This document shows, piece after piece, positions 6,907-25,741 of a stretch of 25,741 nt of DNA. This DNA is from Candidatus Thorarchaeota archaeon (GTDB taxonomy: Archaea > Asgardarchaeota > Thorarchaeia > Thorarchaeales > Thorarchaeaceae). The position numbers and the translations under genes are program-made. Where the stretch lies: NCBI GenBank assembly GCA_038893995.1, contig JAWAQK010000035.1, forward strand, positions 1 to 25,741, given 5' to 3'. The notes below the pieces were generated by a model. That model was not told where the DNA came from. It saw only the letters and a list, made by a program, of their open reading frames with translations, and searched no databases. Within the stretch, counting starts at the first letter, position 1. Each line of letters starts with the position of its first letter.

Positions 6907-7238
6907 CAGGACACGAGCCGGGGGGAAACTGGATGCGTGTGCGAGATGATTCTGAAGGAGAGTGCTACTGGTGACTACGACGACGCTTAGGTCTCAATGG
7001 GGGCCCCAATCAAGACAACGCGGGACATCTAGTCTCAGGATAGATGAGATGAGACGTGGGGAGAACGTCGACAGACTGCTCCCACCGACCGGGGTAGCAC
7101 CGGCCCACGGTGTCGAGCGGAGGTCGTAGGGGGCAGCCATCGAGGCCCACCAGACAAAGAACTGACGTTTCAGCAGCCCGGTCAGACCCCCGAAAGACAA
7201 ATATCCGTACCAGAGCCCTGACCAGCACGGTCATTGCA

Positions 7239-10415: not shown

Positions 10416-10458
10416 CAGAGTGGGACCTCAGCCATAGCTCGAGATTGATGTCCTTGAC

Positions 10459-10482
10459 GACCGGGGGCGACCGTCCCCGGTC
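10459..10482. terminator. GC-rich hairpin between convergent genes
   Basis: GACCGGGGGC-gacc-GTCCCCGGTC, a 10-bp stem including one G-U pair, in the 10415-10655 convergent gap. Confidence 0.4.
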
Positions 10483-10654
10483 ATGCCCTCCCCTGAGCCA
10501 TCATCCCGACGCACAGACGAAACAGAGCACGCCTCTATCGTTGTCTAGACATGCTTCGCTACTTGCACAGTCTTGTCACAGACCGGTACGTGCACTGAAC
10601 TGCGCAACTACCGGGCCCATCTCCAAGAGGAATCACTCGGCCTCCCTGAGGACA

Positions 10655-12964
10655 TCATGCCCTCCTTCTGAACTTCTTGACAGACGCTGACAACACCACC
10701 CCCAGACCGACTAATATCGCCGACGCCAGCAGGAGGGTCTGTCCGTCAGTCGTCGGGTGGCCGGATGCAAGAACAGTCACGAACACAGTGTCGCTGACCC
10801 AGTTTCCGTACGCGTCATAGACAATGATGGTATACTCGTAGATGCCAGGAGTGAGACCATCAATGCTGACTGCTATCTGCGAGCCATCCCAGTCACCTGA
10901 ATCAACAAGGGAACCGTTCCTGTAGACCTCATATCTTGAGGGGTGATAGTCCCACACAGTCCATACAATGAGGTGTCCCGTTGTCCCCTGCAGGTATTGA
11001 ACGTCCTCCGGACTGTCTATCACCGGAGGTGTCGTATCTACTACGATCACGAGGACCGTGTCACGTGCCCTGTTGTTGTAGATGTCGTTGAGCACCGCTG
11101 TGTAGTTGTAGGCACCCGGAGATAGCCCGTCGACACTGACCTGGATATTCGAACCGTTCCAGTTGTCAGACGCGACAAGCGAGCCATTCCTGTAGACCTC
11201 ATATCTCAGGGGATGAGGGTCCCATGCCTCCCATACGAGGATGTGCCCTGTCGTACCAGACTCATACTGCATGTCGTCCGGGCCTACTATGACAGGGGAC
11301 GTCGTATCCACAACGATCACGTACACCATGTCACTGGCCCAATTCGCATAGGTGTCGTAGACGATGACTGTGTAATTGTACACACCCACTGGGAGACCAT
11401 CTACCACGAGCACAATCTTGGAACCATTCCAATAGCCGGACTCGACAGTCGAACCATCTCTACGGATCTCATAGCGATCCGGGTTTGAGTCGTAGGGGGT
11501 CCACACTATGGTATGCCCAGTGGTACCAAACTCGTACTCAAGGTCGGCAGGATGGTCCAGGACTGGAGGGGAGATGGCACAGGCGACTGGATAATGGTCC
11601 ACACTTCCAGCGGAGCCGGGTATTGAGTAGGTTCCGGTTCCCTGGTAGTCGTCCCAGCAGTTTCCCACAGACACACCGTCGTCCCAAGAATTGGAGCTAC
11701 CGTCGTCCCAAGCATTCTCGACTCCGTTGTGGTAGAACTCGTTCATGTAGATAGTGAGACCGGAACAGGCATCAACGAGGACACCGTAGTGGTCATTGTC
11801 CGTGACGCTGTTGCGGACCAGCGTACTATAGGACGACTGACTTAGCATCATGCCAAACCGGTTGGCCCGAACGGTGTTGTCAGCAACGTGACACGAGGGG
11901 GAATACCACATGGCAATTCCACTTCGGAAGTTATTGGTGGCGTTGTTACCAGTTGAGACAGTCTGTGCAGAGTGATCTATGCTGAACCCGTCGTAGTCAT
12001 TTCCAACGGCCGTGCAGTTGTGGAGGGCACACGACACCGACCCATAGAGATAGAAACCATAGATACCGCCGAGCACAGTGACGTTTGTCAGCACACAGCC
12101 CTGAGAGAAGCCCAGCTGCACCCCAATGGAGGTGTGTTCAAGGACAGCATCTCGGACAGTGACATCTGAGCAGTCTACAAGAACGATCTGACCGTATTGC
12201 GAGCCATCCAGGGTCACGTTGGTGAGACCAACTAGATACCCCAGCTGCTTGCCGTTGACGAGGTTGTCCGACATGTCGTGCGACCAGTGAGCAACATTGT
12301 CTCCGACGATGATGACCCCGCCATTGGTCAGTACATTCTCAGCCAGATTGCACGAATTGGACTCAAGTAGGTAGATAGCACTGTCGACCAGGGTGTTGTT
12401 GACCAGGGAGCAAGAACTTGAGAGGTACAGGATGAAGCCCCTCCTGCACCGAGTGAGAGTATTGTTGGTCAGTACTGTGCCTGGCGAGTCATAGACATAC
12501 ACACCATCATAGTGTCGTTCAACAATGTTATTGCGAACTACACCATTGGCCACATCGACCAGGACAATTCCACTCTTCGACGAGGAATATGTAGACGATA
12601 TCAGGCAATCCCTGATCTCGAAGTGTGCCGTTGTACCAGAGATACTGATACAGGTCTCGTCGGACGTTATGTTCAGTCCTGCTATCACATAGGGATCATC
12701 TATGGTGCCAGCCCCAGGCCAGCCCTGCGCGCTGAAGTCTTCATTGGATGATATCGCAATCGGTGCGTGCGGTGTATACGACACATCGTGCATGCGCACA
12801 CGTATCGAGTCGCAGTCAGCTCCTGGGGCGCTGACGACTGGGAATGTCGGAAATGATGTGAGGACGACAAGGATCAGAGCCAACGGCAAGTACTCTCTTC
12901 TGCACAAGGTCGTTCCCCGGTGAAGGGGTCTATGAGGGTAATAAGCATTCATGCCATCGAGCAC
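10655..12964 (-). CDS. right-handed parallel beta-helix (NosD/PbH1-like) surface protein with three ~90-aa Ig-like repeats and C-terminal TM anchor
   Basis: PHAPI.I.SN.DF..QGWPG.GT..DPY.I N-cap, NNT repeats, NGK..GY..GQI insert, WDDG...GN.W.DY C-cap, three DTT.P..D..Y..GTTGH.I.W repeats and a TM + KKFRRRA tail. The true start may be TTG 12907. Confidence 0.88.
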   Translation of the reverse strand: MLDGMNAYYPHRPLHRGTTLCRREYLPLALILVVLTSFPTFPVVSAPGADCDSIRVRMHDVSYTPHAPIAISSNEDFSAQGWPGAGTIDDPYVIAGLNITSDETCISISGTTAHFEIRDCLISSTYSSSKSGIVLVDVANGVVRNNIVERHYDGVYVYDSPGTVLTNNTLTRCRRGFILYLSSSCSLVNNTLVDSAIYLLESNSCNLAENVLTNGGVIIVGDNVAHWSHDMSDNLVNGKQLGYLVGLTNVTLDGSQYGQIVLVDCSDVTVRDAVLEHTSIGVQLGFSQGCVLTNVTVLGGIYGFYLYGSVSCALHNCTAVGNDYDGFSIDHSAQTVSTGNNATNNFRSGIAMWYSPSCHVADNTVRANRFGMMLSQSSYSTLVRNSVTDNDHYGVLVDACSGLTIYMNEFYHNGVENAWDDGSSNSWDDGVSVGNCWDDYQGTGTYSIPGSAGSVDHYPVACAISPPVLDHPADLEYEFGTTGHTIVWTPYDSNPDRYEIRRDGSTVESGYWNGSKIVLVVDGLPVGVYNYTVIVYDTYANWASDMVYVIVVDTTSPVIVGPDDMQYESGTTGHILVWEAWDPHPLRYEVYRNGSLVASDNWNGSNIQVSVDGLSPGAYNYTAVLNDIYNNRARDTVLVIVVDTTPPVIDSPEDVQYLQGTTGHLIVWTVWDYHPSRYEVYRNGSLVDSGDWDGSQIAVSIDGLTPGIYEYTIIVYDAYGNWVSDTVFVTVLASGHPTTDGQTLLLASAILVGLGVVLSASVKKFRRRA

Positions 12965-13131
12965 TTAGCCTCAGAAACCTAGGACCGACGAATCTGGACA
13001 AGATACTGCGAAGCGACATGAACAGGAGCTGCAGTCAGGGTCCCAACCATGCGTACGGAAACGCTCGACTGCAGTTCCCGCTCCGGTCATGTTATGGTCG
13101 TGTCACCAGACTGTGCTCAGGCAGGCCGTGA

Positions 13132-13166
13132 CACCAGTGCAGGTGAAGGTATGACCCGCACTGGTG
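13132..13166 (-). terminator. stem-loop just downstream of the 1136-aa gene
   Basis: CACCAGTGC(a)GGT...ACC(c)GCACTGGTG inverted repeat, 20 nt past the stop at 13186. Confidence 0.4.
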
Positions 13167-13185
13167 CTCAAGTCAGTCTTGAGTC

Positions 13186-16100
13186 TCACGGGCGCTTTCT
13201 CAGCTGAGGCCTCACCACGAACACTACCACAACGACTCCAACAGCGAATGCAATGATCCCCAGAGCCGCAATCATTGTCATGTCTTGTGAAAGCACAGTC
13301 ACGAATACTGTATCACTGACCCAGTTTCCAGATGTATCGTAGACCACAATAGTGTAGTTGTAGATGCCGACAGCGAGGCCGTCAATGTTGACGGTGATGT
13401 CTGAGCCATCCCAGACGCCAGAGTCGACCAGCAGACCATCCCTGTAGACCTCATATCGTTCGGGGTTCAGGTCGCTGGGGTTCCACCTGATGCTGTGGCC
13501 TGTAGTGCCGAGCTCGTACTGCAGATCGTCCGGACTGTCAATCGTGGGAGCAGTGGTGTCCACAACTGTCACGAGGACCATGTCGTTGGCCTGGTTGTCA
13601 TAGGCATCAAAGACAACCAACGTGTAGTTGTACGTACCAGGAGCAAGACCGTCTACGTTCACGACTATCGTTGGACTCGTCCAGCCACCAGAACTGACGA
13701 GTGAGCCATTCCGATAGATCTCGTATTGCTGGGGATGTGGATCTGATGCGATCCAAGTGATGAGATTGCCAGTCGTACCACACTCATACTGCATGTCGTC
13801 TGGACCGGTGACCAGCGGAGCAGTGGTGTCTACTACTCTCACAATGACCGTGTCACGAGCCCAGTTGCTATAGGCATCAAAGACGAGCAGCGTGTAGTTG
13901 TAGGTGCCAACATCAAGGCCGCTAACTCCCACAGTGATACCAGAACTATTCCACTGACCAGACGCGACTAACGAGCCATCCCTGTAGATCGAGTAGTTGC
14001 CGGGGTGATCATCTTCCGGGAGCCAGTAGATCATATGACCAACAGTACCAAACTCGTACTCGATGTCTGGAGGACCCTCGATCCTCGGCGGTCGTATGTC
14101 AAGGACATTGGGGTAACGATCAACGCTGCCAGCAGCGCCCATTATCGGATAGGTGCCTGTGCCAGAGTAGTCGCTCCAGTAGTTGCCTTTTGATACGCCG
14201 TCGTCCCATGTGTTGGAACTGCCATCATCACGCGCGTTCTTCAGGATGTTGTAGCCGATCCTGTTTTCGTACAGTACGCACCCTGAGCTCCAGCCGATGG
14301 CGATGCCGTAGTGAAGGTTGTCGGTAGCGGTACTGAGCAGGACTGTACACTGACTCGAATACAGTATCCCAAGCCCAATGCTTGACCAGGATACTATGTT
14401 GTTGACCAGAGTGACCTTGTCCGAGTACTCCACGACGATGCCCCACGACACGTTCCGTGTGGCATTGTTGTCATTGACGATGCAGTTTGATGAGAAGTAG
14501 ACACGAATTCCAGCATTCTGGTTAAGGCTCACTGTATTGTTCGTCAATGTGCAGTACGATGAGAAGCCCACAGAGATCCCCACTGACGCCCATGAGAAGA
14601 CGCCGTTGCTGACACTGACATTCGTACAGTTGGCGAGGATCACCTGACCGTACAGCGAACCGTCCACAGTGCCTCCTGTGAGGTTCTTGAAGTATCCGAG
14701 CGGCTTGCCATTCACGGTATTCCCAGTCATGGTGTGCAACCACTGGGTGATAGATACCCCATCAATGAAGAGACCAGAACCCGAGAATGTGTTGTTTGTC
14801 AGGACACAAGATGGTGATCGGTATAGATAGACCCCACGCTCGCCCTCGATGATGGTGTTGCCAAGTAGTGATATGGCGTTCGACAGATACACGTAGAATC
14901 CGTTCTGTACGTTCCTGTAGGCGATGTTCTTGCTCAGCGTGAGGGAGGTGCATTGCTCCAAGAAGAACCCATAGGCTGATTTGGATGCATAATTGTTCTC
15001 AAACGTAAGGGACTGTGACAGGAACACGTAGAAACCAGCGGACGTGATATCAATGGCGGAATTGTGACTCAGCACACAGAATCCTGACATATATATCCTG
15101 AACCCGACTACGCTCTCAGTCGATGTGTTGTTCGTGAGGGTGGTGAACGCCGAGTCGTATAGATAGAACCCAGCCTGAGCATGGCCCACTGCCAGGTTGT
15201 TCGTCAAGAGACATGATGGAGACCCTTGGAGATAGAACCCAATTTGTTCATTTCGGAATGCTGTATTGTTCGTCAGAGTACAGGATGTAGAAGACCTCAG
15301 GTAGAATCCCCAGTATGACTCACTTGAAGTGTTGTTGCTCAGAGTACACGTAGAGGAGAAACCCACGGAGATCCCGACTGACGCATGCGGGAAGACACCA
15401 TCTTTGACAGTTACATCCGTGCAGTTGGCGAGGATCACCTGACCGTACAGCGAACCGTCCACAGTGCCTCCTGTGAGGTTCTTGAAGTATCCGAGCGGCT
15501 TGCCATTCACGGTATTCCCTGTCATGGTATGGGACCACTGCGACAGGCTCGATCCGAAGAGCATCACACCTGAGTCGATGAACGTGTTGTCAGTCGCATT
15601 ACATTGGCTCGAGAGATAGATCTGCAGACCGTGTCTGTTGTACTCAGCAACATTCCCATACAGAGTGCAGTCGTCAGACTGGGCCACATAGAACCCTGTC
15701 TCAATGTTGCCAGCGGCTGTGTTGTTGATCAGCGTGGCCGATTCACACGCTGAGATCTCGAAGCCGTTCTGGCCATTGTAGCTAGCATTGTTGCCAATAA
15801 GGACTGGAAACCTCGAGGACAAGTAGAAACCTGTCCCGTACGATCCAATGGCCAGATTGCCTCTGAGCTCACAGGACATAGACTGGAGGATGTAGAAACC
15901 GTACTCATCATCGCCATCACTGGTGTTATTGGTCAGAGTGGAGAAAGACGACTGGAACAACGAGAATCCAAGGGAGTTGGCCCTTGCCTCGTTGCTCAGC
16001 AGTGTAGCAGTACCGGACACTTGGAGTGAGAACCCGCAATGAGTGTTGTACGATGCTGTATTCCTCATCAACGTGATGCCGGGCGAGTTCAAGAGCAGGA

Positions 16101-16521
16101 CACCGTCGTAGTGATTCTCAATGATACAGTGGTGAATGGCTCCGTTGATGACATTGTCCAGTTTGATACCCGGATTGTTTGACTGGGGGTTAGACGAGAT
16201 GAGACATCCCCTTATCTCAAAGTAGGCAGTGGTATCCCGTATAGAGATGCATGTCTCAGTGCTAGTTATGTTGAATCCCTGGATGATGTATGGATCGTTC
16301 ACCGTACCGCTACCTGGGAAGCCCTGACTTGCAAAGTCAGAGTTGGACATTATCACAATCGGTGCATGGGGGACGTACGAGGTCATCACTGACATTGTGA
16401 TTGCGGCTGACGATGCTCCATCAGATCGAGAATTAGCAAGGTCAGCAATCGGGATACACAATGACAAGATCATGACAGACGCAAACAGTGCACACAAAAC
16501 ATGACGTGGGAGTACAGACAT
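13186..16521 (-). CDS. paralogous, longer beta-helix (NosD/PbH1-like) surface protein with internally duplicated beta-helix, three Ig-like repeats and C-terminal TM
   Basis: Same architecture as 10655-12964 but with two NGKPLGY..GQVIL inserts. ATG 16521 is chosen over 16596 because a TATA box sits ~27 nt upstream and a signal peptide follows. Confidence 0.88.
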   Translation of the reverse strand: MSVLPRHVLCALFASVMILSLCIPIADLANSRSDGASSAAITMSVMTSYVPHAPIVIMSNSDFASQGFPGSGTVNDPYIIQGFNITSTETCISIRDTTAYFEIRGCLISSNPQSNNPGIKLDNVINGAIHHCIIENHYDGVLLLNSPGITLMRNTASYNTHCGFSLQVSGTATLLSNEARANSLGFSLFQSSFSTLTNNTSDGDDEYGFYILQSMSCELRGNLAIGSYGTGFYLSSRFPVLIGNNASYNGQNGFEISACESATLINNTAAGNIETGFYVAQSDDCTLYGNVAEYNRHGLQIYLSSQCNATDNTFIDSGVMLFGSSLSQWSHTMTGNTVNGKPLGYFKNLTGGTVDGSLYGQVILANCTDVTVKDGVFPHASVGISVGFSSTCTLSNNTSSESYWGFYLRSSTSCTLTNNTAFRNEQIGFYLQGSPSCLLTNNLAVGHAQAGFYLYDSAFTTLTNNTSTESVVGFRIYMSGFCVLSHNSAIDITSAGFYVFLSQSLTFENNYASKSAYGFFLEQCTSLTLSKNIAYRNVQNGFYVYLSNAISLLGNTIIEGERGVYLYRSPSCVLTNNTFSGSGLFIDGVSITQWLHTMTGNTVNGKPLGYFKNLTGGTVDGSLYGQVILANCTNVSVSNGVFSWASVGISVGFSSYCTLTNNTVSLNQNAGIRVYFSSNCIVNDNNATRNVSWGIVVEYSDKVTLVNNIVSWSSIGLGILYSSQCTVLLSTATDNLHYGIAIGWSSGCVLYENRIGYNILKNARDDGSSNTWDDGVSKGNYWSDYSGTGTYPIMGAAGSVDRYPNVLDIRPPRIEGPPDIEYEFGTVGHMIYWLPEDDHPGNYSIYRDGSLVASGQWNSSGITVGVSGLDVGTYNYTLLVFDAYSNWARDTVIVRVVDTTAPLVTGPDDMQYECGTTGNLITWIASDPHPQQYEIYRNGSLVSSGGWTSPTIVVNVDGLAPGTYNYTLVVFDAYDNQANDMVLVTVVDTTAPTIDSPDDLQYELGTTGHSIRWNPSDLNPERYEVYRDGLLVDSGVWDGSDITVNIDGLAVGIYNYTIVVYDTSGNWVSDTVFVTVLSQDMTMIAALGIIAFAVGVVVVVFVVRPQLRKRP
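14627..14724. repeat. 98-bp perfect direct repeat, copy 1 (copy 2 at 15422-15519)
   Basis: cagttggcgaggatcacc...ggtattccc is identical in both copies. The offset is 795 nt (265 codons). Confidence 0.92.
15422..15519. repeat. 98-bp perfect direct repeat, copy 2
   Basis: Identical to 14627-14724. Confidence 0.92.
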
Positions 16522-16543
16522 GGCGAACATGTGCGAGGTTCTT

Positions 16544-16555
16544 CTTATAAATATT
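16544..16555 (-). promoter_or_regulatory. TATA box (AATATTTATAAG on - strand) for a leaderless beta-helix gene transcript
   Basis: Strong TTTATAAG centred ~27 nt upstream of ATG 16521. Confidence 0.65.
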
Positions 16556-16696
16556 GGTAGGGGACAAGACAGAGTAGGTCTGTGTGAATTGGCCATGGCT
16601 GTACGATCTCACCTCCGACGACCGATCGGGACCGGAACGACAGGACCCCCAGGATCATCTCTGCGGAGGCCGCAATGCGGAGCTGTCGGAGGAAGC

Positions 16697-18196
16697 TCAG
16701 GGGTAGTGGACCGAGGCCGCCAGAACAGCCCAGTCATATACAGGACCAAATACTGTCCCTGCGGCCACCACCACGACAACTGCAGCAATCAAGACCAGCC
16801 TTGTTGTCCTCGGAACACGGATCTGCACAGAAGCTGTTGATTCCACGAAGTAGCAGTGACGCACCACCCTCAGGTAGTACCCCAGGGAGTAGAGCGTGTT
16901 CACGACACCCGCTACCACTAGCCACAGCAGACCTGCTTCGAATGCACTCAAGAAGAGTGCGAACTTCGACAGGAAACCGACCGTGAATGGCATACCCGCC
17001 AGCGCAAGGACGAGTACAGAGAGACAGGCAGCCAGTATCGGAGAACGTCGGGCAAGACCCGAGAGGTCATCGTAGGTCACCGTCTTGGAGAGTTCTGCGC
17101 CCAGTGTCCATACGGCGATGAATGCAGCGCTCTTGGTCACAGCATGCGCAAATGCCGTATATAGCGCAGCAGCCAGACCTGATGCTGTTCCTGCGGCAAG
17201 ACCCATGAAGAGGTATCCCATCATGGCAATGCTCGAATATGCCAACATCCTTGCTATGCGTCTCTCCGCAAGCGCCAGCACGTTGCCTATCGTCATGGTC
17301 AGCACTGATACCACTGCAAGAACGGCGCCCAACAGTGTCAGCTGAGCGACCACAGGGAATACCATGAATATCCTTACGAGTGCTCCGATTCCTGTCTTCT
17401 TGCTGGCTCCTGCAAGATAACCCGCAACGCTGCCGTCTGCAGTACCGTAGGCATCGGGTACCCACATCCAGCCGGGGAAGATTCCTATCTTGAATCCAAA
17501 CGAGACAATCAGCAGGACAATGGCAACCAGAAGCGAATACGTTCGGTCGTCAATGGGACCAGACCATATCCCAGACACGGCCAGGCCAACTGCATGAAGC
17601 TCGGTCTCGCCCGTTGCGGCATAGATGAGCGTTATACCCAGCAACATCAATGCAATCGAGAGAAGACCCATGATGAAGTACTTCGTTGCCCCGTCAATCG
17701 CGCCCCTGTTCTCGCTCAGTGCGACAAGCACGTAGGTCGGAGTGGCCATGAGCTCAAAGGCCACAAATATCGCGATCAGGTCGTTGGCCATCACGACGAG
17801 GATCGCACCTGCGAACGACACTAGGAACATGAAGTTGTAACAGCCAAGATACTGATGGTGAGCCCTCGATGCGACCAGTACCATGACGCTCACAACAAGG
17901 ACTATCATGATGAAGAAATCCGAGTACACATCTCTGATGTACAGCCGCCCATAGCATTGGAGCGGATAGCTCGAGCTGTCAGTCAGAAGGCATGCCACCG
18001 CTGCCAATACTACACCGAGCACACTGAATGGGAGGGGGTCGCGGTGCAGACCGACACCCAGTGCGAGCAGGGCGAAGAGTACCAGTATGATCACTGGTAG
18101 AAGTCCTATGGCGGCTGGTGTCAGATATGACGAGGCAATTGCCCTGAGCCATGCGATGGCTGAGATGATCGGATCAAGAGGGGACTGCAACATCAT
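16697..18196 (-). CDS. nuoN: complex I-like antiporter subunit N (NuoN/FpoN)
   Basis: FVAFELMA (TM5 Glu), ATKYF, GFKIG..P..MWVPDAY, ASKK, RMLAYSSIA and GMP...GFLSKF (TM12 Lys). ATGA overlap with nuoM. Confidence 0.93.
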   Translation of the reverse strand: MMLQSPLDPIISAIAWLRAIASSYLTPAAIGLLPVIILVLFALLALGVGLHRDPLPFSVLGVVLAAVACLLTDSSSYPLQCYGRLYIRDVYSDFFIMIVLVVSVMVLVASRAHHQYLGCYNFMFLVSFAGAILVVMANDLIAIFVAFELMATPTYVLVALSENRGAIDGATKYFIMGLLSIALMLLGITLIYAATGETELHAVGLAVSGIWSGPIDDRTYSLLVAIVLLIVSFGFKIGIFPGWMWVPDAYGTADGSVAGYLAGASKKTGIGALVRIFMVFPVVAQLTLLGAVLAVVSVLTMTIGNVLALAERRIARMLAYSSIAMMGYLFMGLAAGTASGLAAALYTAFAHAVTKSAAFIAVWTLGAELSKTVTYDDLSGLARRSPILAACLSVLVLALAGMPFTVGFLSKFALFLSAFEAGLLWLVVAGVVNTLYSLGYYLRVVRHCYFVESTASVQIRVPRTTRLVLIAAVVVVVAAGTVFGPVYDWAVLAASVHYP

Positions 18197-19689
18197 GGTA
18201 CAACTCCTGCAATGTCAGACACTGCTTCTGAGATGATGACAAGTATCAGGTCGGGCCACACGCCCAGTGCCACCACAAACACTAGCATCACGGCTGGAGC
18301 CACGAGGTCGCTTAGCGATGCATCAGACATCGCACGGTCCTCCCGACCCTCACTATAGACCATGCGATTGAGCGTCCATAGGAAATAGCCAACCGTCACG
18401 AATATGCCGAACGCGATCAGTCCGGACCAGACGAAGACCTGGATCGAGCCAAAGAGGATCAGGACCTCCGCGACAAACCCGCTGAGCGTGGGGAGCCCGA
18501 ATGCCGCAAGCGATGCAAGTACAAACACCCCTGACAGACGGGGTGCACGTGAGCCTAGGCCTGACACCTCATCGATCATTCGAGATCCAGCAGAGTGCTT
18601 CAATAGACCTGCGACTATGAACAGGACCGAGATGATGGCCCCGTGAGAGAACATCATGAAGACAGCACCAACGATGGCGAGCTGAGACCCTGCGGCGACC
18701 CCCAGCAACACCCATGCCATGTGGTTGATCGACGTATATGCCACCAGTGACTTGAGGTCACCCTGTGCCATTGCAGTGAAGGCCGCGTAGATGCAGGTGA
18801 ACACCGCCAGTAGGGCGAACGGGACTGCAAGACGGAAGAATGCTCCTGCGTTAAGCCAGAGGCCCAGACGTACAAAGGCATAGCCACCCATCTTGAGAAG
18901 AATACCAGCCAGGACGACAGAACCCGGCGTGGGCGCCTTCACATGAGCGTAGGGAAGCCAATTGTGAAACGGCCAGACGGGCAACTTGACTCCGGCACCG
19001 AGGAACACTGCTATCGCAAACAGTACCTGGATCTCGAGTGGCACAGTTGACATGAGTGTCCTGAGTCGCAACATGTCCAGAGAGCCAGCGGTGACAAAGA
19101 CTGCGAAGAATCCGATCAGCATCGCCAGCGAACCGATCTGTGTGTATACGAAGAACTTCACAGCAGCATGTTGAGCCCCCTCCTCGCCCCATTCTCCAAT
19201 CACGAAGAACATTGGAATCAGTACTAGTTCCCAGAACAGGAAGAAGCCTATCAGATTGGTCGAGATGAAGACGCCGACGAGTCCTGTCTGAAGTAGGAGC
19301 ATCAGAGAATAGAATGACTTCTGAGAATGCTCTATGTGACTGGCCGAGAGGATTGCGACAAACATGACCAGGTTTGCAAGCAAGACCAGCACCACCGAGA
19401 TACCATCGACCCCAAGAGTGATGGCAATGGGCTCAGACATGATAGTGCCCATCACCAGGACTGTGTACGTGACCGCCTCATAGGAGTCCAGAGCAGGGTC
19501 AAACACAGACAGCATTGCAAGCGATAGGATCAGCTCAACAAGAGTCGCAGCGACCCCCACGTATCTTGCACGATGCTCCCCTGACATGAAGGCGACAATT
19601 GCACCGAGGAGTGGTAACAACAACAGGAAGGGGAGTGTTCCCATTGGGATCATGTTCAGGAGGTCACGTAGGACTGTTGTCGATTGCAT
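18193..19689 (-). CDS. nuoM: complex I-like antiporter subunit M (canonical copy)
   Basis: LGVDGIS, FWELVLIPMF, AAVKFFVYT, VKLPVWPFHNWLPYAHVKAPT.GSVVLAGILLKMGGY, AYTSINHM and GLP.LSGFVAE. TGATG overlap with nuoL. Confidence 0.94.
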   Translation of the reverse strand: MQSTTVLRDLLNMIPMGTLPFLLLLPLLGAIVAFMSGEHRARYVGVAATLVELILSLAMLSVFDPALDSYEAVTYTVLVMGTIMSEPIAITLGVDGISVVLVLLANLVMFVAILSASHIEHSQKSFYSLMLLLQTGLVGVFISTNLIGFFLFWELVLIPMFFVIGEWGEEGAQHAAVKFFVYTQIGSLAMLIGFFAVFVTAGSLDMLRLRTLMSTVPLEIQVLFAIAVFLGAGVKLPVWPFHNWLPYAHVKAPTPGSVVLAGILLKMGGYAFVRLGLWLNAGAFFRLAVPFALLAVFTCIYAAFTAMAQGDLKSLVAYTSINHMAWVLLGVAAGSQLAIVGAVFMMFSHGAIISVLFIVAGLLKHSAGSRMIDEVSGLGSRAPRLSGVFVLASLAAFGLPTLSGFVAEVLILFGSIQVFVWSGLIAFGIFVTVGYFLWTLNRMVYSEGREDRAMSDASLSDLVAPAVMLVFVVALGVWPDLILVIISEAVSDIAGVVP

Positions 19690-21905
19690 CAGAACACCCC
19701 CATCGCGATGAGACCCAGGATGACTATGAGACCTAGACCGAAAACCATCACAGCCGCATAGTCGTTGACGTGGCCAGTCTGTATTCTCTGTCCCCGTCTC
19801 GAGGCTTCGACGCTCGACGAGGCGATCTCCTCTGCAAGGCCATCGACCACGTGGTCGTCAAACCATCTGATCCGACGTGAGATGGACTTCCCTGCAGATG
19901 CCATTCCCATGTCTATGCCGTCGATTATTGAGTTGTCGACACGCACTCTCCACCACTCGGCAAGGGCCAGGAACTTCCCGACCACCCAATAGTAGAACTC
20001 GTTGATGTACCACCTGTGCCTCAGGAACGTGTACAGGCGTCTTAGAGGTCCGTGATCGGGAATCAGCCTCGGACGCTCATCGGCTCGTCTGACATAGATA
20101 GCGTAGGCTGGAACACCTCCTATAAATAGGGCCAGCATCGTGGCCCCAAAGGGCACGACTCCTGAGGCAGAGAACTTCACAGCCACAGCATCATAGAGTA
20201 GTGAGAGGTAGGCATCGGGTGTCAATGGGCCCGAGTGCTCCAGCAGGGACTGGATGAACGGGAACACTGCAATCGCAATGACTGTGAATGCGGCAAGTAT
20301 GTATAGTGGGACCATCATTATTGGACCTGGATCGTGGGGACTGTCATGGGCACTGTCTGGACTGGACCCATGATGTACGGTCTCGTGCGTGTCTTCGTGG
20401 ACCAACTGTTCACGTCCGTAGAACACCAGACCCATGAGGCGTACGGAGTAGAACACAGTACATCCAGCAGCCAAGACAGACAGGAGGAACAGGATGGTCC
20501 CAATGGGTTCGTGGAGCGCAAGCTCGTATGTGTACTCGATGATCGAGTCCTTCGACCAGAAGCCTGAGAGGGGTGGGACGCCTGAGAGAGCCAAGACCCC
20601 TATCCACATGACCACAAAGGTGCGTGGCATGTACCTTCTCAGTCCTCCCATCTTTGTGACATACTTGGTGTGGACCGCATGAATGACTCCGCCTGCGGCC
20701 AGGAAGAGCAGGGCCTTGAACGCACCGTGACTGACTACATGCAGAACTCCACTCACAAGGGCTGGTTCGTAGTGGGCTGCTAGGAGTCCTCCTGTACCGA
20801 TTGCCAGCATCATGTAGCCGAGCTGGCTCAGGGTCGAGAATGCCAGGATCTGCTTGAGCTCATTGGACACCATGCCCATTGTCGCGGTCATGAACGCAGT
20901 CAGGGCACCGACGACTGCCACGATCATGAAGAATACTGACACTGTCTCGAGTCCGTACAGCTGCAGGGGGACATAATGCTCACCAGACCCACCACCAGAT
21001 GATGCTCCAGCCATAGTGAGCAGGAGCCTGGCGGTCATATACACACCCGCCTTCACCATCGTCGCTGCATGGATGAGTGCGGACACCGATGTTGGACCGG
21101 CCATCGCCTCTGGCAGCCACACCTGCAGAGGCACCTGACCGGACTTGCCCATTGCACCCAGAAACACTAGAACAAGCATCGGGACGAGGATGCCCATCGA
21201 GGCCATCGACTGGAACCAGCCATTCTCCGGGTCTGCGAGCCCTCCTGTGCCGGTGAAGGAGAAGGTACCAGCAAATGAGAACAGGAGCAGAATACCTGCC
21301 AGCATGAACGCATCTCCGAACCGAGTGACCATGAAGGCCTTCGTCCCGCAGTGCGTGTTGTAGTGTCCCTCCGTCCTGAACTGCAACAGGGGATTCTTGT
21401 AGACGACTGGGTCTGCCTCACTCTCCGGTGGGTTCCTCTTGTCGTTCCAGAATCCAATCAGGCCAAAGGAACAGAAGCCCATGATCTCCCAACCCACAAA
21501 GGCAATCAGCAGGTTGTTGCTCAGGACCAGCGTCAGCATCCCGCCTCCAAAGGCCAGCATCAGGAAGAAGAACCGGTCTCGGTCGCCCTCATGAGCCATG
21601 TACTCGACGCTATACACGTAGATCAGAAAGCAGAGCGTGCTCGAGAGCACGGCCATGATCACGGAGAGTGGGTCGAGGAGTACCTCAAACTGGAGACCCA
21701 GTGACGGTATCCATATCCAGGAGGTGGGACCGGTTGGAGAGCCTATCTCTACCAGCAGGGACCAGCAGAAGACCATTGTCACACCCATGATGATGGCTGG
21801 AGTCCAGTCTCTGAGCCCCTGATTCACTCTACCTATCAGGGGGATCAATACGGACCCTGCCAACGGCAAGACGATGATGAGATAGTAGGGTAGTCCGAGC
21901 AGCAT
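19689..21905 (-). CDS. nuoL: complex I-like antiporter subunit L with elongated lateral helix
   Basis: DPLS, GWEIMG, RFGD, GKSGQVPLQVWLPEAMAGPTSVSALIHAATMVKAG, HGAFKALLFL, GFWSKD, WYINEFY and QTG. True start is ATG 21905 after a GGAGGTGA SD. The ORF-track extension to 22223 overlaps the upstream gene. Confidence 0.95.
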   Translation of the reverse strand: MLLGLPYYLIIVLPLAGSVLIPLIGRVNQGLRDWTPAIIMGVTMVFCWSLLVEIGSPTGPTSWIWIPSLGLQFEVLLDPLSVIMAVLSSTLCFLIYVYSVEYMAHEGDRDRFFFLMLAFGGGMLTLVLSNNLLIAFVGWEIMGFCSFGLIGFWNDKRNPPESEADPVVYKNPLLQFRTEGHYNTHCGTKAFMVTRFGDAFMLAGILLLFSFAGTFSFTGTGGLADPENGWFQSMASMGILVPMLVLVFLGAMGKSGQVPLQVWLPEAMAGPTSVSALIHAATMVKAGVYMTARLLLTMAGASSGGGSGEHYVPLQLYGLETVSVFFMIVAVVGALTAFMTATMGMVSNELKQILAFSTLSQLGYMMLAIGTGGLLAAHYEPALVSGVLHVVSHGAFKALLFLAAGGVIHAVHTKYVTKMGGLRRYMPRTFVVMWIGVLALSGVPPLSGFWSKDSIIEYTYELALHEPIGTILFLLSVLAAGCTVFYSVRLMGLVFYGREQLVHEDTHETVHHGSSPDSAHDSPHDPGPIMMVPLYILAAFTVIAIAVFPFIQSLLEHSGPLTPDAYLSLLYDAVAVKFSASGVVPFGATMLALFIGGVPAYAIYVRRADERPRLIPDHGPLRRLYTFLRHRWYINEFYYWVVGKFLALAEWWRVRVDNSIIDGIDMGMASAGKSISRRIRWFDDHVVDGLAEEIASSSVEASRRGQRIQTGHVNDYAAVMVFGLGLIVILGLIAMGVF

Positions 21906-21913
21906 GTTGACCG

Positions 21914-23440
21914 TCACCTCCAGGGTAGTATTCCACTGATGATCTCGACGAGGGGCTTTATGACATCGACCGCCAGCGCTGGAAAGACTCCGAAGATCAG
22001 TGTCAGGACAGCAAGGACGGTCATCGAGAGTGTCATGGAACGGGGAGCCTCGTGGACCTCCTCGAGATCCTCGGGGTGGGGTCCGAGGAACACAGTGGTG
22101 AAGAAGCGCAGCATATATGAGGCACTGAGAATGATACTGGATATTGCCACCACTGAGAGTACCAGGAAGGGAGTATTGCCGGTGGACTCGTACGCATGGA
22201 AGCCCCCGAGAAACATGAGCCACTCACTGGCGAATCCTGCCAGCGGGGGCGAGCCTGCAATGCTCATCGCACCCACAGCTGCCGCGAAGGCCGTCACTGG
22301 CATCTTGTTCGACAGCCCGCCCATTGCGCCTATGTCCCTCAGTTGTGTCTGGTGGATGACGGCGCCAGCACACATGAAGAGGAGACCCTTAGAGAGAGCA
22401 TGACTGACGAGATGAAACAGACCTCCCGTGACGCCTGACACGGTGAATACTCCAATCGCAAAGAGGACGTATCCCATCTGAGAGACCGATGAATAGGCCA
22501 GCAACCTCTTGATGTCTCTCTGTGCGAGAGCCATGATTCCGCCATAGAACATGGTCAACACACCAAGCATGGCGACCCAGAACGACAGGTCTATGGCAAC
22601 TGAGCTGAGGATGATTGTGTTGAATCTGACCATTGCATAGGCACCGGTCTCGATCATTGCACCAGACAGCAGGACGGATATTGGAGTTGGAGCCTCTGCG
22701 TGGACGGGTGGCAACCACCAATGTAGTGGAAAGACGGCCATCTTGACAAGGAACCCCGCAGCAAGAAGGACGTAGATGACCTTCAACGTGGTCAGAGAGC
22801 CAGTCAGGGCTGGAACGACAGTCTGGATGACCTGCATGTCGAGTGTGAGTGTACCTGTCTGAACGGACACTAGGTACGCGATCATACCGAATCCAATCAG
22901 TATGGTCACAGCACCTGCCTGTGTATACAGCCAGAACTTGATCGCAGTCCGTGTCCTCGTCTCGGGGACTCCCCAGAACAGGATCAGGAAGTACGTTGGA
23001 ACCAGCATGATCTCCCACGCGATAAAGAACTCCACCAGGTTCGTGGCCAGTGTGACCCATTGCATGCCCATGAGGAAGAAGAGATGGTTCGCAAAGAACG
23101 TGGGCCTGTTCTCAGCATGCTCGGTATAGCCCACTGCGTAGGTCACCGACGTCAGCCCGAGGACCACCACTGCGAGCGTCACTGGAAATGAGATGCCGTC
23201 TAGTCTGAGCCCAAACTCTCCAAGGATGGTTGACCATCTCAGCCCCTCGTAGGCAGTGCCTCGTTCCACCATGACACGGAAGAACGGAGGGACCATCAGG
23301 AACGTTGCGATGAGCGAGACCGTACTCGCAACAACTCCACAACCATGTCCCAGACGACCCTTGGCGAGGTATATCCCGAGCCCTCCCAGGAATAGCACTG
23401 CCAGTGACAGACCCATGAATGGTATCTCGACCAGCTGCAT
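21914..23440 (-). CDS. nuoM: second NuoM-like antiporter subunit (M'; NuoM/MrpD/HyfB-type)
   Basis: LRLDGIS, FIAWEIMLVP, AIKFWLYT, VKMAVFPLHWWLP..HAEAPTPIS, KRLLAYSSVSQMGY and PPLAGFASEW (M-type TM12 Glu). Start ATG 23440 via TGATG overlap with nuoI and a GGAGG SD. Confidence 0.88.
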   Translation of the reverse strand: MQLVEIPFMGLSLAVLFLGGLGIYLAKGRLGHGCGVVASTVSLIATFLMVPPFFRVMVERGTAYEGLRWSTILGEFGLRLDGISFPVTLAVVVLGLTSVTYAVGYTEHAENRPTFFANHLFFLMGMQWVTLATNLVEFFIAWEIMLVPTYFLILFWGVPETRTRTAIKFWLYTQAGAVTILIGFGMIAYLVSVQTGTLTLDMQVIQTVVPALTGSLTTLKVIYVLLAAGFLVKMAVFPLHWWLPPVHAEAPTPISVLLSGAMIETGAYAMVRFNTIILSSVAIDLSFWVAMLGVLTMFYGGIMALAQRDIKRLLAYSSVSQMGYVLFAIGVFTVSGVTGGLFHLVSHALSKGLLFMCAGAVIHQTQLRDIGAMGGLSNKMPVTAFAAAVGAMSIAGSPPLAGFASEWLMFLGGFHAYESTGNTPFLVLSVVAISSIILSASYMLRFFTTVFLGPHPEDLEEVHEAPRSMTLSMTVLAVLTLIFGVFPALAVDVIKPLVEIISGILPWR

Positions 23441-23871
23441 CACCTGAACCTCCTTCCACGCCACCTGAGAGGCTCGCGATCAAGCGTCGCCATCCTATCA
23501 GGCCCGTAGACCAGGTCCTCACGTTCACCCTCACTCAGGTCGGTGACCGGTGTGTGGAACAGTGCATTGAACCTACAGGCCTGAACGCAGAGCCCGCAGA
23601 AGATGCACCGAGTGTAGTCAAAGTACAGGGCGGCGTCCTTCTCGAACTTCCGGTCGCTCTTGTCAATCCGAATTGCGACGTTGGGGCAGGCACGTACACA
23701 CTGGGCGCAGGCCGTGCAGTTCTCCCTGATATGTATGTGCCGTCCTCTTGTACGAGCAGGGTAGTAACGGTCCTCGTACGGATAGAGATTCGTGATGGGC
23801 CGCTCGAATATCTGACGGAATACGTGCCTCAGGACATGAAATATGTCGCCCAGTGCCTTGAAGAACGTCAA
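23440..23871 (-). CDS. nuoI: complex I-like subunit I, 2x[4Fe-4S] ferredoxin
   Basis: T.LYPYE...P.R.RG.H, CTACAQCVRACP and CIFCGLCVQAC. TTG start after a GGAGGTGGGTGA SD. Confidence 0.93.
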   Translation of the reverse strand: MTFFKALGDIFHVLRHVFRQIFERPITNLYPYEDRYYPARTRGRHIHIRENCTACAQCVRACPNVAIRIDKSDRKFEKDAALYFDYTRCIFCGLCVQACRFNALFHTPVTDLSEGEREDLVYGPDRMATLDREPLRWRGRRFR

Positions 23872-23874
23872 TTC

Positions 23875-25029
23875 TCACCCACCTCCTGTCACAATGGCGA
23901 TCAGCCACGGATTGTAGGCAAGCACCAACAGAGTCACGGCGAGGTTCAGGATTGAGAGCGGAAACAGGTATTTCCAGGAGTAGTAGACGACCTGATCCTG
24001 TCGGATCCTGAAGAATGAGGACGTCAGTATCACAAAGAAGAACATCACTATGAGGGTCTTCACCATGAAGTTCACCACGGGCGGCAGAAAAGGCAGTCCG
24101 TAGGAGCCACCCAGGAACAGTGCCACGGTCATGGCTGAGAACAGGAACTGCTTTGCAAATTCAGCAAAGTACGTCAGGGTGAAGTAGATCCCCGAGAACT
24201 CGGTTCGCCACCCGAAGATGATCTCCGAGTCAGCAACCGGAGCATCGAAGGGAACCAGTCCGGTGACAGCCTCTGCGCTGACCAGAAACGTGACGCAACT
24301 CACAGGCAGAAGGAACACGTACCAGACGTTGCTCTGGGAGGCTGAGATGTTCATCAGGCTCAGACTACCAGCCAACAATGCGGGCCCCACTGCCGAGAGA
24401 ATGAGGGGGATCTCTGCGGCAAATTGGTTGTTTGCGGCCCTGAAGCCCCCGACGACCGTATACTTGGAGCCACAGAACCAACCTGACAGCAGGGAGACTA
24501 CGGGTACAGCCGTCAGAAACGCAAAGACCAGTAGGAGACTCACTGAGAGGTCAGCAATGTACCACTCATTGTCCCAGGGGATGAAGGCAAATGGGATCAG
24601 GACGACCGCGAGGAGCATTGACGGTAGAAGTCGATACATCCACCGCCTTGCACCAACGGGGATAATGGTCTCCTTTGACACAAGCTTGATGGCGTCCGCG
24701 AATAACTGCAGACCGCCGAACTTGCCCATGTGATATGGTCCGCGTCTTGCCTGGATCCGACCCCAGAGCTTTCTCGTGAACCAGACTGCATAGATTATCC
24801 CCAACACGATGAATACCAGACCTGGGAACACTATGGACTTGAACAGGAACCAGAAGTTGTCGATGGCGAGTCCCCAGATCCAGACGAATACGCCCCAGGC
24901 CCAGACGAAGACTCCGTGGAGGACCGAATACAGCCACGTTATGATCCCCCATATCCAGTCTGGAATGCCACGCAGCCACTGAAAGATGTCAAACTGAAGT
25001 GGTGCCATGCTCTGAATACCGTCCGTCAT
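23875..25029 (-). CDS. nuoH: complex I-like subunit H (NuoH/FpoH) with Trp-rich N-terminal extension
   Basis: VFPG, RK..GRIQ.RRGP, GGLQLFADAIKL..KE, SKY...GGFRAA, PFD...SEI..G..TEFSG and FRIRQDQ. ATG 25029 overlaps the nuoD stop (ATGA). Confidence 0.92.
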   Translation of the reverse strand: MTDGIQSMAPLQFDIFQWLRGIPDWIWGIITWLYSVLHGVFVWAWGVFVWIWGLAIDNFWFLFKSIVFPGLVFIVLGIIYAVWFTRKLWGRIQARRGPYHMGKFGGLQLFADAIKLVSKETIIPVGARRWMYRLLPSMLLAVVLIPFAFIPWDNEWYIADLSVSLLLVFAFLTAVPVVSLLSGWFCGSKYTVVGGFRAANNQFAAEIPLILSAVGPALLAGSLSLMNISASQSNVWYVFLLPVSCVTFLVSAEAVTGLVPFDAPVADSEIIFGWRTEFSGIYFTLTYFAEFAKQFLFSAMTVALFLGGSYGLPFLPPVVNFMVKTLIVMFFFVILTSSFFRIRQDQVVYYSWKYLFPLSILNLAVTLLVLAYNPWLIAIVTGGG

Positions 25030-25741
25030 CTGTCCCACCATCCTGGATATGGGTCTAGGCTACCGAAGATAACGATAAAGTCTGCAAATCTGGCCCCAGG
25101 CACTAGGTGTTTCAGCGCGTAGTATGAGTTGAAACAGGGTCCTCTGACCTTGGCCCGGTACGGAGTCTGTGCCTTGTCAGTCGTCTTGAGCCAGACTGTG
25201 GTGATACCTCTTGTTCCCTCGACCCGCCCATATGCCTCGCCCGCAGGAAGTCTGTTGGTCTTGGCTCGGGCCTTGGGGTCCACTATGGGTCCACTCGGGA
25301 GTTGACGCAGTAGCCCTCTGATGATCTGGATTGAGGTCTCCATCTCCAAGAAGCGCTGCACCATCCTGTCATATGCATCACTCTCGCCAGGATGCTCTGG
25401 GCTCTCAACCACTGGCACCTCCCAGTCGACCATGTCGTAGGCAAGATTGGGGTCAGGGGCGTCCTTCCGGAGGTCCATGGGAATGCCACAGGCCTTTATG
25501 TTCGGGCCACTTAGACCCAGCCTGAGAGCCTGCTTTCCACTGAACTGTCCCACGCCCTTTGTCCGGAGGCGGAAGGTCGGACTGCCCATCAGCATGTCGC
25601 GGAACTTGGGAAGCCTCTCCTCGAGACGAGAGACCGCCTGCTCGAGCCTTGCCACCGACTTCTCGGTGAAGTCATACCTGACGCCGCCAGGAGTGCTGTA
25701 GGACACTGTGTGCCGAGACCCAGTCAGCTCCTCGAAGGCAT
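25026..25741 (-). CDS. nuoD: complex I-like subunit D (NuoD/FpoD; hydrogenase large-subunit homolog), 5'-truncated by window edge
   Basis: The frame is open to the window end (AFEELTGSRHTVSYSTPGGVRYD). Motifs: RTKGVG, GLSGP..KACG..MDLRKD, DAYDR...RFLEM..S, GEAY..VEG.RG, PYR.KVRGP and ADFIVIFGSLDPYPGWWDR. Confidence 0.9.
   Translation of the reverse strand, partial: AFEELTGSRHTVSYSTPGGVRYDFTEKSVARLEQAVSRLEERLPKFRDMLMGSPTFRLRTKGVGQFSGKQALRLGLSGPNIKACGIPMDLRKDAPDPNLAYDMVDWEVPVVESPEHPGESDAYDRMVQRFLEMETSIQIIRGLLRQLPSGPIVDPKARAKTNRLPAGEAYGRVEGTRGITTVWLKTTDKAQTPYRAKVRGPCFNSYYALKHLVPGARFADFIVIFGSLDPYPGWWDR

What the first reader, a model, noticed from the sequence alone, without database searches (positions are those of the whole stretch)
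19785..19940. Exact 26-residue tandem duplication in the NuoL lateral (HL) helix: a molecular ruler for one extra pump
Seen: VDNSIIDGIDMGMASAGKSISRRIRW followed directly by FDDHVVDGLAEEIASSSVEASRRGQR. These two 26-aa units match at D2, D7-G8, A14-S15 and S21-R22-R23. The distance from WYxN to QTG is ~78 aa here, versus roughly 50 in ordinary NuoL/Nqo12 (from memory). Established: 26 helical residues is ~39 A, about the width of one antiporter subunit. Inference: the helix was lengthened by duplicating one 'DxxxIDG' period to clamp the fourth subunit. This is independent evidence that M' is built into the membrane arm, and the duplication mechanism is still readable.
Basis: partly seen in the sequence, partly recalled or inferred. 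Interest (0 to 1): 0.82.

Follow-up and report, generated by a model that had tools for sequence, protein, structure and literature searches.

The report
Lengthened NuoL clamp helix, four pumps
In a Thorarchaeota (Asgard) genome, the long side helix of complex I subunit NuoL is one 26-residue module longer through an old tandem duplication, and the operon also encodes a fourth pump-like subunit; this is a new example of the published "2M" complex I design, not a new kind of machine.

Summary
NuoL (19689-21905, 738 aa) carries two in-register 26-residue units: residues 656-681 and 682-707. The distance from the WYIN anchor to QTG is 77 residues. It is 51-53 in ordinary NuoL, including solved Paracoccus NuoL.

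Both units align to the same single segment of solved NuoL/NdhF chains, so there is a net one-unit insertion that looks like a duplication. It is old: DNA identity is 34/78, and only the xDxx(I/V)(I/V)DG head plus one Ser are conserved across 107 Thorarchaeota orthologs.

The operon is nuoA-J-K-C-D-H-I-M'-L-M-N, with four antiporter-like subunits. In Asgard relatives, helix units track the pump count:
- 0 units with 2 pumps: 3 loci.
- 1 unit with 3 pumps: 26 loci.
- 2 units with 4 pumps: 19 loci.

The rule is not general. NuoL with 2 or 3 units also occurs in L-M-N-only operons, including one Asgard genus with only three such genes in the whole genome. Helix length therefore agrees with a built-in M' but does not prove it.

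The 26-residue HL insertion with a second NuoM is published (Chadwick 2018; Yu 2022). This scan has also noted the same duplication several times on other DNA.

The parts
19689..21905 (-). nuoL, 738 aa from ATG 21905 (MLLGLPYY...). The longer GTG ORF that runs to 22223 overlaps M' and is not used.
   Evidence: Pfam Proton_antipo_N + Proton_antipo_M. NCBIfam TIGR01974 NDH_I_L scores 462.6 bits against a cut-off of 407.5. Foldseek top hits are NuoL/ND5/NdhF chains with TMt 0.75-0.85.
19989..20012 (-). WYINEFYY anchor motif (residues 632-639) at the start of the long lateral helix
   Evidence: Aligns to WYFDEIY of solved NuoL/NdhF. Conserved in all orthologs.
19791..20048 (-). Lateral helix HL (residues 620-705)
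   Evidence: AF2 model ma6dc85e2fa4a has helices 620-629 and 631-705, the latter 75 residues without a break. pLDDT falls to 43-72 over residues 660-710.
19863..19940 (-). HL unit 1, VDNSIIDGIDMGMASAGKSISRRIRW (residues 656-681)
   Evidence: Aligns to 'VDYNVVDGV' of NdhF 6hum_F and to 647-660 of Paracoccus NuoL 8qby_L.
19785..19862 (-). HL unit 2, FDDHVVDGLAEEIASSSVEASRRGQR (residues 682-707)
   Evidence: Aligns to 563-625 of M. smegmatis NuoL 8e9g_L and to 647-695 of Paracoccus NuoL 8qby_L, the same segment as unit 1.
19773..19781 (-). QTG motif (residues 709-711) in the loop between HL and TM16
   Evidence: Q709 and T710 are nearly invariant and G711 is invariant in alignment A1. AF2 places a loop at 706-712.
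19704..19769 (-). TM16, the C-terminal anchor helix (residues 713-734)
   Evidence: AF2 helix 713-734.
21914..23464 (-). M', the extra NuoM-like antiporter subunit (516 aa). Its start overlaps the end of nuoI.
   Evidence: PF00361, 3e-69. TIGR01972 NDH_I_M scores 304 bits against a cut-off of 263.8. It is 31% identical to M over 477 aa and closer to M than to N or L.
18193..19689 (-). nuoM (498 aa). Its start overlaps the nuoL stop codon.
   Evidence: TIGR01972, 419.7 bits. Sequence at 19689-19700.
16697..18196 (-). nuoN-like gene (499 aa)
   Evidence: The best NCBIfam match is TIGR01770 NDH_I_N at 281 bits, below the cut-off of 332.6. PF00361.
23440..25741 (-). nuoI (23440-23871), nuoH (23875-25041) and the 3' part of nuoD (25026-25741, cut by the contig end)
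   Evidence: Pfam NADHdh and Complex1_49kDa. The nuoI ORF has two CxxCxxC-type motifs. The 5' part of nuoD plus nuoC-K-J-A lie at the end of contig C21.

Best explanation
This is the C-terminal lateral (HL) helix of NuoL in a complex I-like enzyme with four antiporter-like subunits ('2M'-type) from a Thorarchaeota (Asgard) archaeon. The helix consists of the canonical WY.NE..Y start followed by two in-register 26-residue modules of the type xDxx(I/V)(I/V)DG...S...R, where ordinary NuoL has one. The QTG turn and the TM16 anchor follow.

The extra module arose by an old in-frame tandem duplication of 78 nt. That event predates the split of Thorarchaeota from the Heimdall-like and other Asgard lineages that share the M'-L-M-N arrangement.

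Inferred mechanism: 26 helical residues add about 39 A, roughly the width of one antiporter-like subunit. HL can then run past three neighbours (M', M, N) instead of two, and TM16 can still dock at the proximal end. This would clamp a longer membrane arm that could move one more ion per cycle. Each module probably repeats the same contact on successive homologous subunits.

Shown: the duplication-like repeat, the net insertion, the fourth gene, translationally coupled operon conservation, and the clade-level co-occurrence.
Inferred: physical incorporation of M', its position in the arm, and the extra ion pumped.
For: Repeat statistics:
- 8/26 identical residues and BLOSUM62 score 34; no shuffle of 100,000 reaches it.
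- It is the best tandem repeat in the protein (score 35, next best 16).
- At clade level the profile z-score is 4.1.

Net insertion:
- Both units align to one and the same segment of solved NuoL/NdhF chains.
- Anchor-to-QTG is 77 residues here and 53 in Paracoccus NuoL.
- In 122 scored representatives the distance falls into classes near 25, 51, 77 and 103, that is, in steps of 26.
- Near-identical recent duplications of the same module occur in other lineages (P0141, P0147, L059, L060), so this is a recurrent way to lengthen HL.

Structure: AF2 gives a 75-residue continuous helix at 631-705, followed by a loop and then TM16.

Fourth subunit and operon:
- M' passes the NuoM subfamily cut-off.
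- The genes overlap or abut one another.
- The order A-J-K-C-D-H-I-M'-L-M-N with a two-unit NuoL is kept in the Thorarchaeota genomes fetched (16 untruncated loci) and in 3 further Asgard genomes.

Co-occurrence:
- The NuoL core tree, built with HL removed, puts the window in a clade of 26 sequences with support 95. All have two units, and every one with known context has four pumps. The nearest archaeal clades in the tree are mostly one-unit, three-pump clusters.
- Untruncated Asgard clusters: 0 units with 2 pumps in 3/3; 1 unit with 3 pumps in 26/26; 2 units with 4 pumps in 19.

Literature: a 26-aa HL insertion together with a second NuoM defines the published 2M complex I (PMC9040806, PMC6606698, both citing Chadwick 2018).
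Against: - Helix length and pump number are uncoupled elsewhere. Two units occur with L-M-N only in Asgard loci L061-L064, and genomes G054 (93% complete, 10 contigs) and G015 hold just three PF00361 genes. The same is seen in bacterial operons P0156/L070 and P0178.
- Three units occur with L-M-N only in P0183/L005, and three units with four pumps in L044.
- PMC9040806 reports the same mismatch in Ca. Manganitrophaceae.
- Within the clade, the co-occurrence is probably a single evolutionary event, so the many loci are not independent.
- The similarity between the units is mostly an 8-residue motif. The A14-S15 and R22-R23 matches are not conserved across orthologs.
- AF2 confidence over the distal HL is low (43-72), and the model is a monomer.
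- No experimental data exist for any Asgard complex.
Confidence: 0.7

Rival explanations
1. The helix extension is real, but it is not what accommodates M'. Two-unit HL is a widespread variant that three-pump complexes tolerate: the extra length holds something else or is slack. Its presence beside M' in this clade is historical coincidence or pre-adaptation.
For: Two- and three-unit NuoL occur with only L-M-N in several unrelated lineages. There are at least 29 changes of unit number on the NuoL tree. PMC9040806 notes HL insertions in one-nuoM complexes.
Against: In the archaeal part of the tree the series 0/1/2 units with 2/3/4 pumps has few exceptions (L031/L033/L040, L044 and L059). One of them, genome G061 (locus L031), does hold four antiporter-like genes in total. 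A four-subunit arm with a one-unit HL was not seen in any locus examined. Geometry also needs about 39 A more to reach past a fourth subunit.
Confidence: 0.2
2. The two units are not a duplication. An unrelated 26-residue insertion converged on the xDxxVVDG motif because each stretch of HL must make the same contact with a homologous subunit.
For: Only the 8-residue head and one Ser are conserved between the units across orthologs. DNA identity is 34/78. Amphipathic helices share composition.
Against: The spacing is exactly 26 with no indel in about 115 orthologs. Lengths are quantised in steps of 26 across the family. Clearly recent, nearly identical duplications of the same module exist in other lineages. 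Both units align to the same canonical segment.
Confidence: 0.07
3. M' belongs to a different complex or is a redundant paralogue, and the enzyme works with three pumps.
For: No direct evidence. M' is only 31% identical to M. A first-reader note (e1-5620407, not checked here) reports a Lys-to-Glu change in its TM8.
Against: M' sits inside the operon between nuoI and nuoL with overlapping ends. It is conserved at that position in all 19 untruncated clusters of the clade.
Confidence: 0.03

Closest known systems
2M complex I (Chadwick, Hemp, Fischer & Orphan 2018, ISME J 12:2668), as described in PMC9040806, PMC6606698, PMC7117926 and PMC7300363. The primary paper was not available in the library.
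   Same: The nuo cluster has a second NuoM-like gene, and NuoL is lengthened by about 26 residues in helix HL. No NuoEFG genes lie in the cluster. The proposed role is an extra pumped ion per cycle.
   Different: The host is a Thorarchaeota/Asgard lineage. The gene order is A-J-K-C-D-H-I-M'-L-M-N. NuoB is supplied as the C-terminal domain of a FAD-oxidase fusion protein encoded upstream. Whether this clade is one of the published 2M clades could not be checked. The citing papers I could read call the extension an 'insertion', not a tandem duplication.
Canonical NuoL/Nqo12/ND5 of three-pump complex I (for example P. denitrificans 8qby_L, E. coli 7p61_L, T. thermophilus 4he8)
   Same: Same fold (TMt 0.75-0.82), same domains, the same WY.DE anchor, one xD..VIDG module, the QTG/QSG turn and TM16.
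   Different: The canonical protein has one module (53 residues from anchor to Q in Paracoccus). This one has two (77 residues).
One-nuoM complexes with a lengthened HL (Complex_I_1 and Complex_I_2 of Ca. Manganitrophaceae, PMC9040806; also loci L005, L070 and L061-L064 here)
   Same: The same 26-residue module is repeated two or three times in HL.
   Different: Those operons encode only L, M and N. Here the fourth subunit is present, so helix length and pump number match.
Ca. Manganitrophaceae Complex_I_3 (PMC9040806)
   Same: A further 26-aa HL extension goes with an added pump subunit.
   Different: That complex has five pumps, the HL lies on an MrpD-like subunit, and it is a bacterial hybrid.

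Membership tests
NuoL (NDH-1 subunit L / ND5 family) | Proton_antipo_N plus Proton_antipo_M domains, scoring above the curated NuoL subfamily cut-off | tested here: met
   PF00662 and PF00361. TIGR01974 scores 462.6 bits against a cut-off of 407.5.
NuoL (NDH-1 subunit L / ND5 family) | C-terminal extension with a long lateral helix and a final TM anchor | tested here: met
   AF2 helices 620-705 and 713-734. Foldseek top hits are all NuoL/ND5/NdhF chains.
2M complex I | A fourth antiporter-like (second NuoM-type) gene inside the nuo cluster | tested here: met
   M' at 21914-23464: PF00361, and TIGR01972 at 304 bits against a cut-off of 263.8. Conserved in 19 related clusters.
2M complex I | NuoL helix HL lengthened by about 26 residues relative to three-pump NuoL | tested here: met
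   77 residues against 51-53.
2M complex I | Placement in one of the published 2M clades | not testable with these tools
   Chadwick 2018 is not held in the library, so no reference sequences were available. In my tree the window's clade holds only Asgard sequences where names exist.
2M complex I | The fourth subunit is physically built into the membrane arm and raises the ion/electron ratio | not testable with these tools
   This needs a structure or biochemistry. To my knowledge it is also unproven for the published 2M enzymes.
Internal tandem duplication of the HL module | Two adjacent, equal-length, in-register units more alike than chance | tested here: met
Internal tandem duplication of the HL module | Both units are homologous to the single unit of relatives | tested here: met
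   HMMER aligns both units to 8qby_L 647-660/647-695 and to 6hum_F 596-650. The individual E-values are weak (0.08-0.3) because the pieces are short.
Internal tandem duplication of the HL module | Repeat detectable at the DNA level | tested here: not met
   34/78 identical bases. If it is a duplication, it is an old one.
HL as a strict ruler of pump number | Unit number equals the number of antiporter-like subunits minus two, in all lineages | tested here: not met
   Exceptions are L005, L044, L061-L064, L070 and P0178.

The most novel reading that the evidence does not exclude
HL length in the NuoL/MrpA-like family changes in 26-residue quanta (0 to 3 or more modules) through recurrent tandem duplication and loss. 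In the Asgard lineage of this window, the step from one to two modules went together with recruitment of M', giving a natural series of 2-, 3- and 4-pump arms. The frequent mismatches elsewhere would then mean that helix lengthening can precede or outlast pump gain, that is, pre-adaptation or a relic. The Thorarchaeota enzyme would in addition be fed through a FAD-oxidase-NuoB fusion, not through NuoEFG.
Probability: 0.35. Interest if true: 0.55.

Novelty: new member of a known kind. Interest (0 to 1): 0.35.

Why it matters
It adds an Asgard (Thorarchaeota and related) clade to the enzymes that follow the four-pump '2M' complex I design. It shows that the published '26-residue insertion' is a copy of the neighbouring helix module. 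It also sets a limit on a tempting shortcut: a lengthened NuoL helix alone cannot be used to infer a hidden fourth pump, because the two features are uncoupled in several lineages. This matters for energy-budget estimates of Asgard archaea, since ions moved per electron pair depend on the pump count, but only once the complex is characterised.

Tried and rejected
- Chadwick 2018 could not be read by DOI or PMC id. I used citing papers instead.
- The plus-strand reading of the given coordinates contains stop codons, so the feature is on the minus strand.
- The DNA-level repeat is only 34/78 identical and does not count as evidence for a recent duplication.
- I looked for a conserved extra membrane gene between nuoL and nuoM in the two-unit, three-pump genus g27. 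L064 has a 235-aa ORF with no Pfam hit. L063 instead has an opposite-strand gene at that place. The gene is not conserved, so this was rejected as a filler subunit.
- P0168, P0216 and P0253 lie on contigs too short to count pumps.
- Complex prediction was not run. L plus M' exceeds 1000 residues, and an HL fragment would be expected to dock on any antiporter-like subunit by likeness to solved complex I, so a pass would not discriminate.
- The script machine failed and the structure machine. The tree had been saved and was analysed. It is a FastTree run on a sample biased toward query-like sequences.
- A literature search for a Thorarchaeota NuoB/GlcD fusion found nothing relevant.

Full report
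**Observation.** The coordinates 19785-19940 read through stop codons on the plus strand. They lie near the C-terminus of a NuoL gene. I take this gene as 19689-21905 (738 aa, starting MLLGLPYY), because the longer GTG ORF overlaps the upstream gene.

In this numbering, unit 1 is residues 656-681 and unit 2 is residues 682-707. QTG is 709-711 and the Trp of the WYINEFYY anchor is residue 632. None of 100,000 shuffles reached that score. A scan of the whole protein for tandem repeats of any period from 10 to 59 puts this pair first by a wide margin (35 against 16). At the DNA level only 34 of 78 bases agree, so 'exact' describes length and register, not sequence.

**What the gene and its surroundings are.**
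- Pfam, NCBIfam and Foldseek all identify NuoL: PF00662 plus PF00361; TIGR01974 at 462.6 bits against a cut-off of 407.5; top structural hits are NuoL/ND5/NdhF chains with TMt 0.75-0.85.
- On the same strand the window holds nuoD (cut by the contig end), nuoH, nuoI, an extra NuoM-like gene M', nuoL, nuoM and a nuoN-like gene (best match TIGR01770, below its cut-off), with overlapping or abutting ends. M' is 516 aa and scores 304 bits on TIGR01972 against a cut-off of 263.8. It is 31% identical to M and closer to M than to N or L.
- The window is a whole contig. The 5' part of nuoD with nuoC, K, J and A sits at the end of contig C21. The operon is therefore nuoA-J-K-C-D-H-I-M'-L-M-N.
- The nearest NuoL homologues (60-70% identity) are all labelled Candidatus Thorarchaeota where a name is given, apart from single 'Lokiarchaeota' and 'Promethearchaeota' labels.

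**Is there a net insertion, and is it a copy?**
- HMMER against solved structures aligns unit 1 to the 'VDYNVVDGV' segment of cyanobacterial NdhF and unit 2 to the 'VDDKAVDG...QVQTG' segment of M. smegmatis NuoL.
- With the C-terminal 143 residues alone, both units align to the same stretch of Paracoccus NuoL (8qby_L 647-660 and 647-695) and of NdhF (6hum_F 596-650). The E-values are weak because the pieces are short, but the pattern is what a duplication predicts.
- In Paracoccus the anchor Trp to the Q of QSG is 53 residues. Here it is 77.
- Of 144 full-length NuoL among 150 representatives of 50%-identity clusters, 122 had both anchors recognised. In those, the distance is quantised: about 25 (5 proteins), 49-53 (42), 76-82 (65) and 102-105 (9). 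These are steps of 26.
- Several lineages carry nearly identical neighbouring modules (P0141, P0147, L059, L060). Tandem duplication of this module is therefore a recurrent and sometimes recent event.
- In about 115 Thorarchaeota orthologs the two xxDG motifs lie 49 and 23 (or 50 and 24) residues before QTG, always 26 apart.
- At clade level the in-register profile score of unit 1 against unit 2 is 17.6, against -20 +/- 9.2 for column shuffles (z = 4.1). The signal comes from the xDxx[IV][IV]DG head and one Ser. The A-S and R-R matches of this particular protein are not conserved.

I conclude that this is an old in-frame duplication of one HL module. A converged unrelated insert is a weak alternative.

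**Structure.** AF2 was run with a 60-sequence alignment (mean pLDDT 86.3). It gives helices 620-629 and 631-705, the latter 75 residues without a break, then a loop containing QTG, then TM16 at 713-734. Confidence over the distal helix is low (43-72), as expected for a monomer model of a helix that normally lies on partner subunits. By standard helix geometry (1.5 A per residue), twenty-six residues add about 39 A. This is roughly the width of one antiporter-like subunit; the width figure is from my own knowledge of complex I structures and was not measured here.

**Co-occurrence with a fourth pump.** I searched 151 genomes of the same phylum with NuoL and fetched 60 regions of up to 20 kb. 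I annotated them by BLASTP against the window's own subunits and measured the helix class. In untruncated clusters:
- 0 modules went with 2 antiporter-like genes (3 of 3).
- 1 module went with 3 genes (26 of 26).
- 2 modules went with 4 genes in the order M'-L-M-N in 19 clusters: 16 from Thorarchaeota and 3 from other Asgard families.

A FastTree of NuoL cores with the helix removed places the window in a clade of 26 sequences with support 95. All of them have two modules, and every one with known context has four pumps. Named members are Thorarchaeota, 'Heimdallarchaeota' and 'Asgardarchaeia'. The neighbouring archaeal clades are mostly one-module, three-pump clusters.

**Limits of the ruler.** The same survey shows that the rule is not general.
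- Asgard loci L061-L064 have two modules but only L, M and N. Genomes G054 (93% complete, 10 contigs) and G015 contain just three PF00361 genes in total. The gene between nuoL and nuoM there is not conserved.
- L044 has three modules with four pumps.
- P0183/L005 has three modules in a plain nuoA-N operon with a single nuoM.
- Bacterial two-module NuoL P0156 and P0178 sit in L-M-N operons.
- The tree needs at least 29 changes of module number.
- Yu et al. (PMC9040806) report the same for Ca. Manganitrophaceae, where HL insertions occur in one-nuoM complexes.
- Earlier notes of this scan report the same mismatch in several bacteria and one Asgard genome. My own data agree with them.

The helix extension is consistent with M' being part of the arm. 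It is necessary on geometric grounds, but it is not independent proof.

**Comparison with what is known.** A second NuoM together with a NuoL lengthened by about 26 residues in helix HL defines the '2M' complex I of Chadwick et al. 2018. That paper is described in PMC9040806, PMC6606698, PMC7117926 and PMC7300363; the primary paper is not in the library. The window meets both sequence criteria. I could not test whether it belongs to one of the published clades. I also found no paper that describes this arrangement in Thorarchaeota. The texts I could read call the extension an insertion, not a duplication of the neighbouring module. That reading may be a small addition, but I cannot exclude that the primary paper makes it.

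**Verdict.** This is a new member (an Asgard clade) of a known kind. Interest is moderate to low for the finding itself.

**Side observation.** A 616-aa protein that fuses a GlcD-like FAD oxidase to a C-terminal NuoB domain lies just upstream of nuoA. It is conserved at 73-81% identity in 17 other genomes of the family and lies upstream of the nuo operon wherever both genes share a contig. I did not follow it further.

Noticed in passing
Own genome contig C21, locus L068:1411-3261 (-), upstream of nuoA (L003:1848-2291): A 616-aa protein combines FAD_binding_4, FAD-oxidase_C (GlcD/D-lactate dehydrogenase-like) and a C-terminal NuoB (Oxidored_q6) domain. The operon has no free-standing nuoB. The fusion is conserved full-length (73-81% identity) in 17 other genomes of the family and lies upstream of the nuo operon wherever both are on one contig. 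It may be a direct electron-input module replacing NuoEFG. I found no paper on it.
   Followed up: partly
window 25026-25741 and L003:2-430: The nuo operon is split over two contigs inside nuoD. Its gene order is unusual, nuoA-J-K-C-D-H-I-M'-L-M-N, with J and K moved ahead of C. This order is conserved in Thorarchaeota relatives.
   Followed up: yes
Loci L005, L070, L061-L064, L044; proteins P0183, P0156, P0178: NuoL with two or three 26-residue HL modules occurs in operons with only L, M and N. Asgard genomes G054 and G015 have just three PF00361 genes in total. L044 has three modules with four pumps. What the extra helix length does there is unexplained.
   Followed up: partly
Proteins P0141 and P0147; loci L059:8806-10884 and L060:6098-8122: These carry nearly identical neighbouring HL modules, for example LE(L/I)GIIDHINYVIAELFK repeated in P0141. 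The duplications of the same module are recent and independent.
   Followed up: no
L005:15116-21618 and L070:13398-15303: In two bacterial metagenome contigs, a nuo operon with a multi-module NuoL is followed directly by an ATP synthase operon that begins with an ATPase_gene1 (AtpZ/AtpI-like) gene.
   Followed up: no
window 20940-21440 (NuoL residues about 157-188 and 300-320): NuoL has two lineage-specific insertions relative to solved NuoL chains. One follows the GFW motif (DKRNPPESEADPVVYKNPLLQFRTEGHYNTHCG). The other is a Gly/Ser-rich loop (GASSGGGSGEHYVPLQ) with low pLDDT.
   Followed up: no
Own genome contigs C65:5831-10258 and C6:60823-61710: The genome holds further antiporter-like genes. 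On C65 a NuoB-like gene lies about 3 kb from one of them, probably a separate Mbh/Mrp-type complex.
   Followed up: no
window 7110-16596: Three very large predicted surface proteins lie directly downstream of the nuo operon. Two have NosD/right-handed beta-helix, PKD and Ig-like domains (1136 aa and 769 aa), and the third has Ig-like domains (1101 aa).
   Followed up: no
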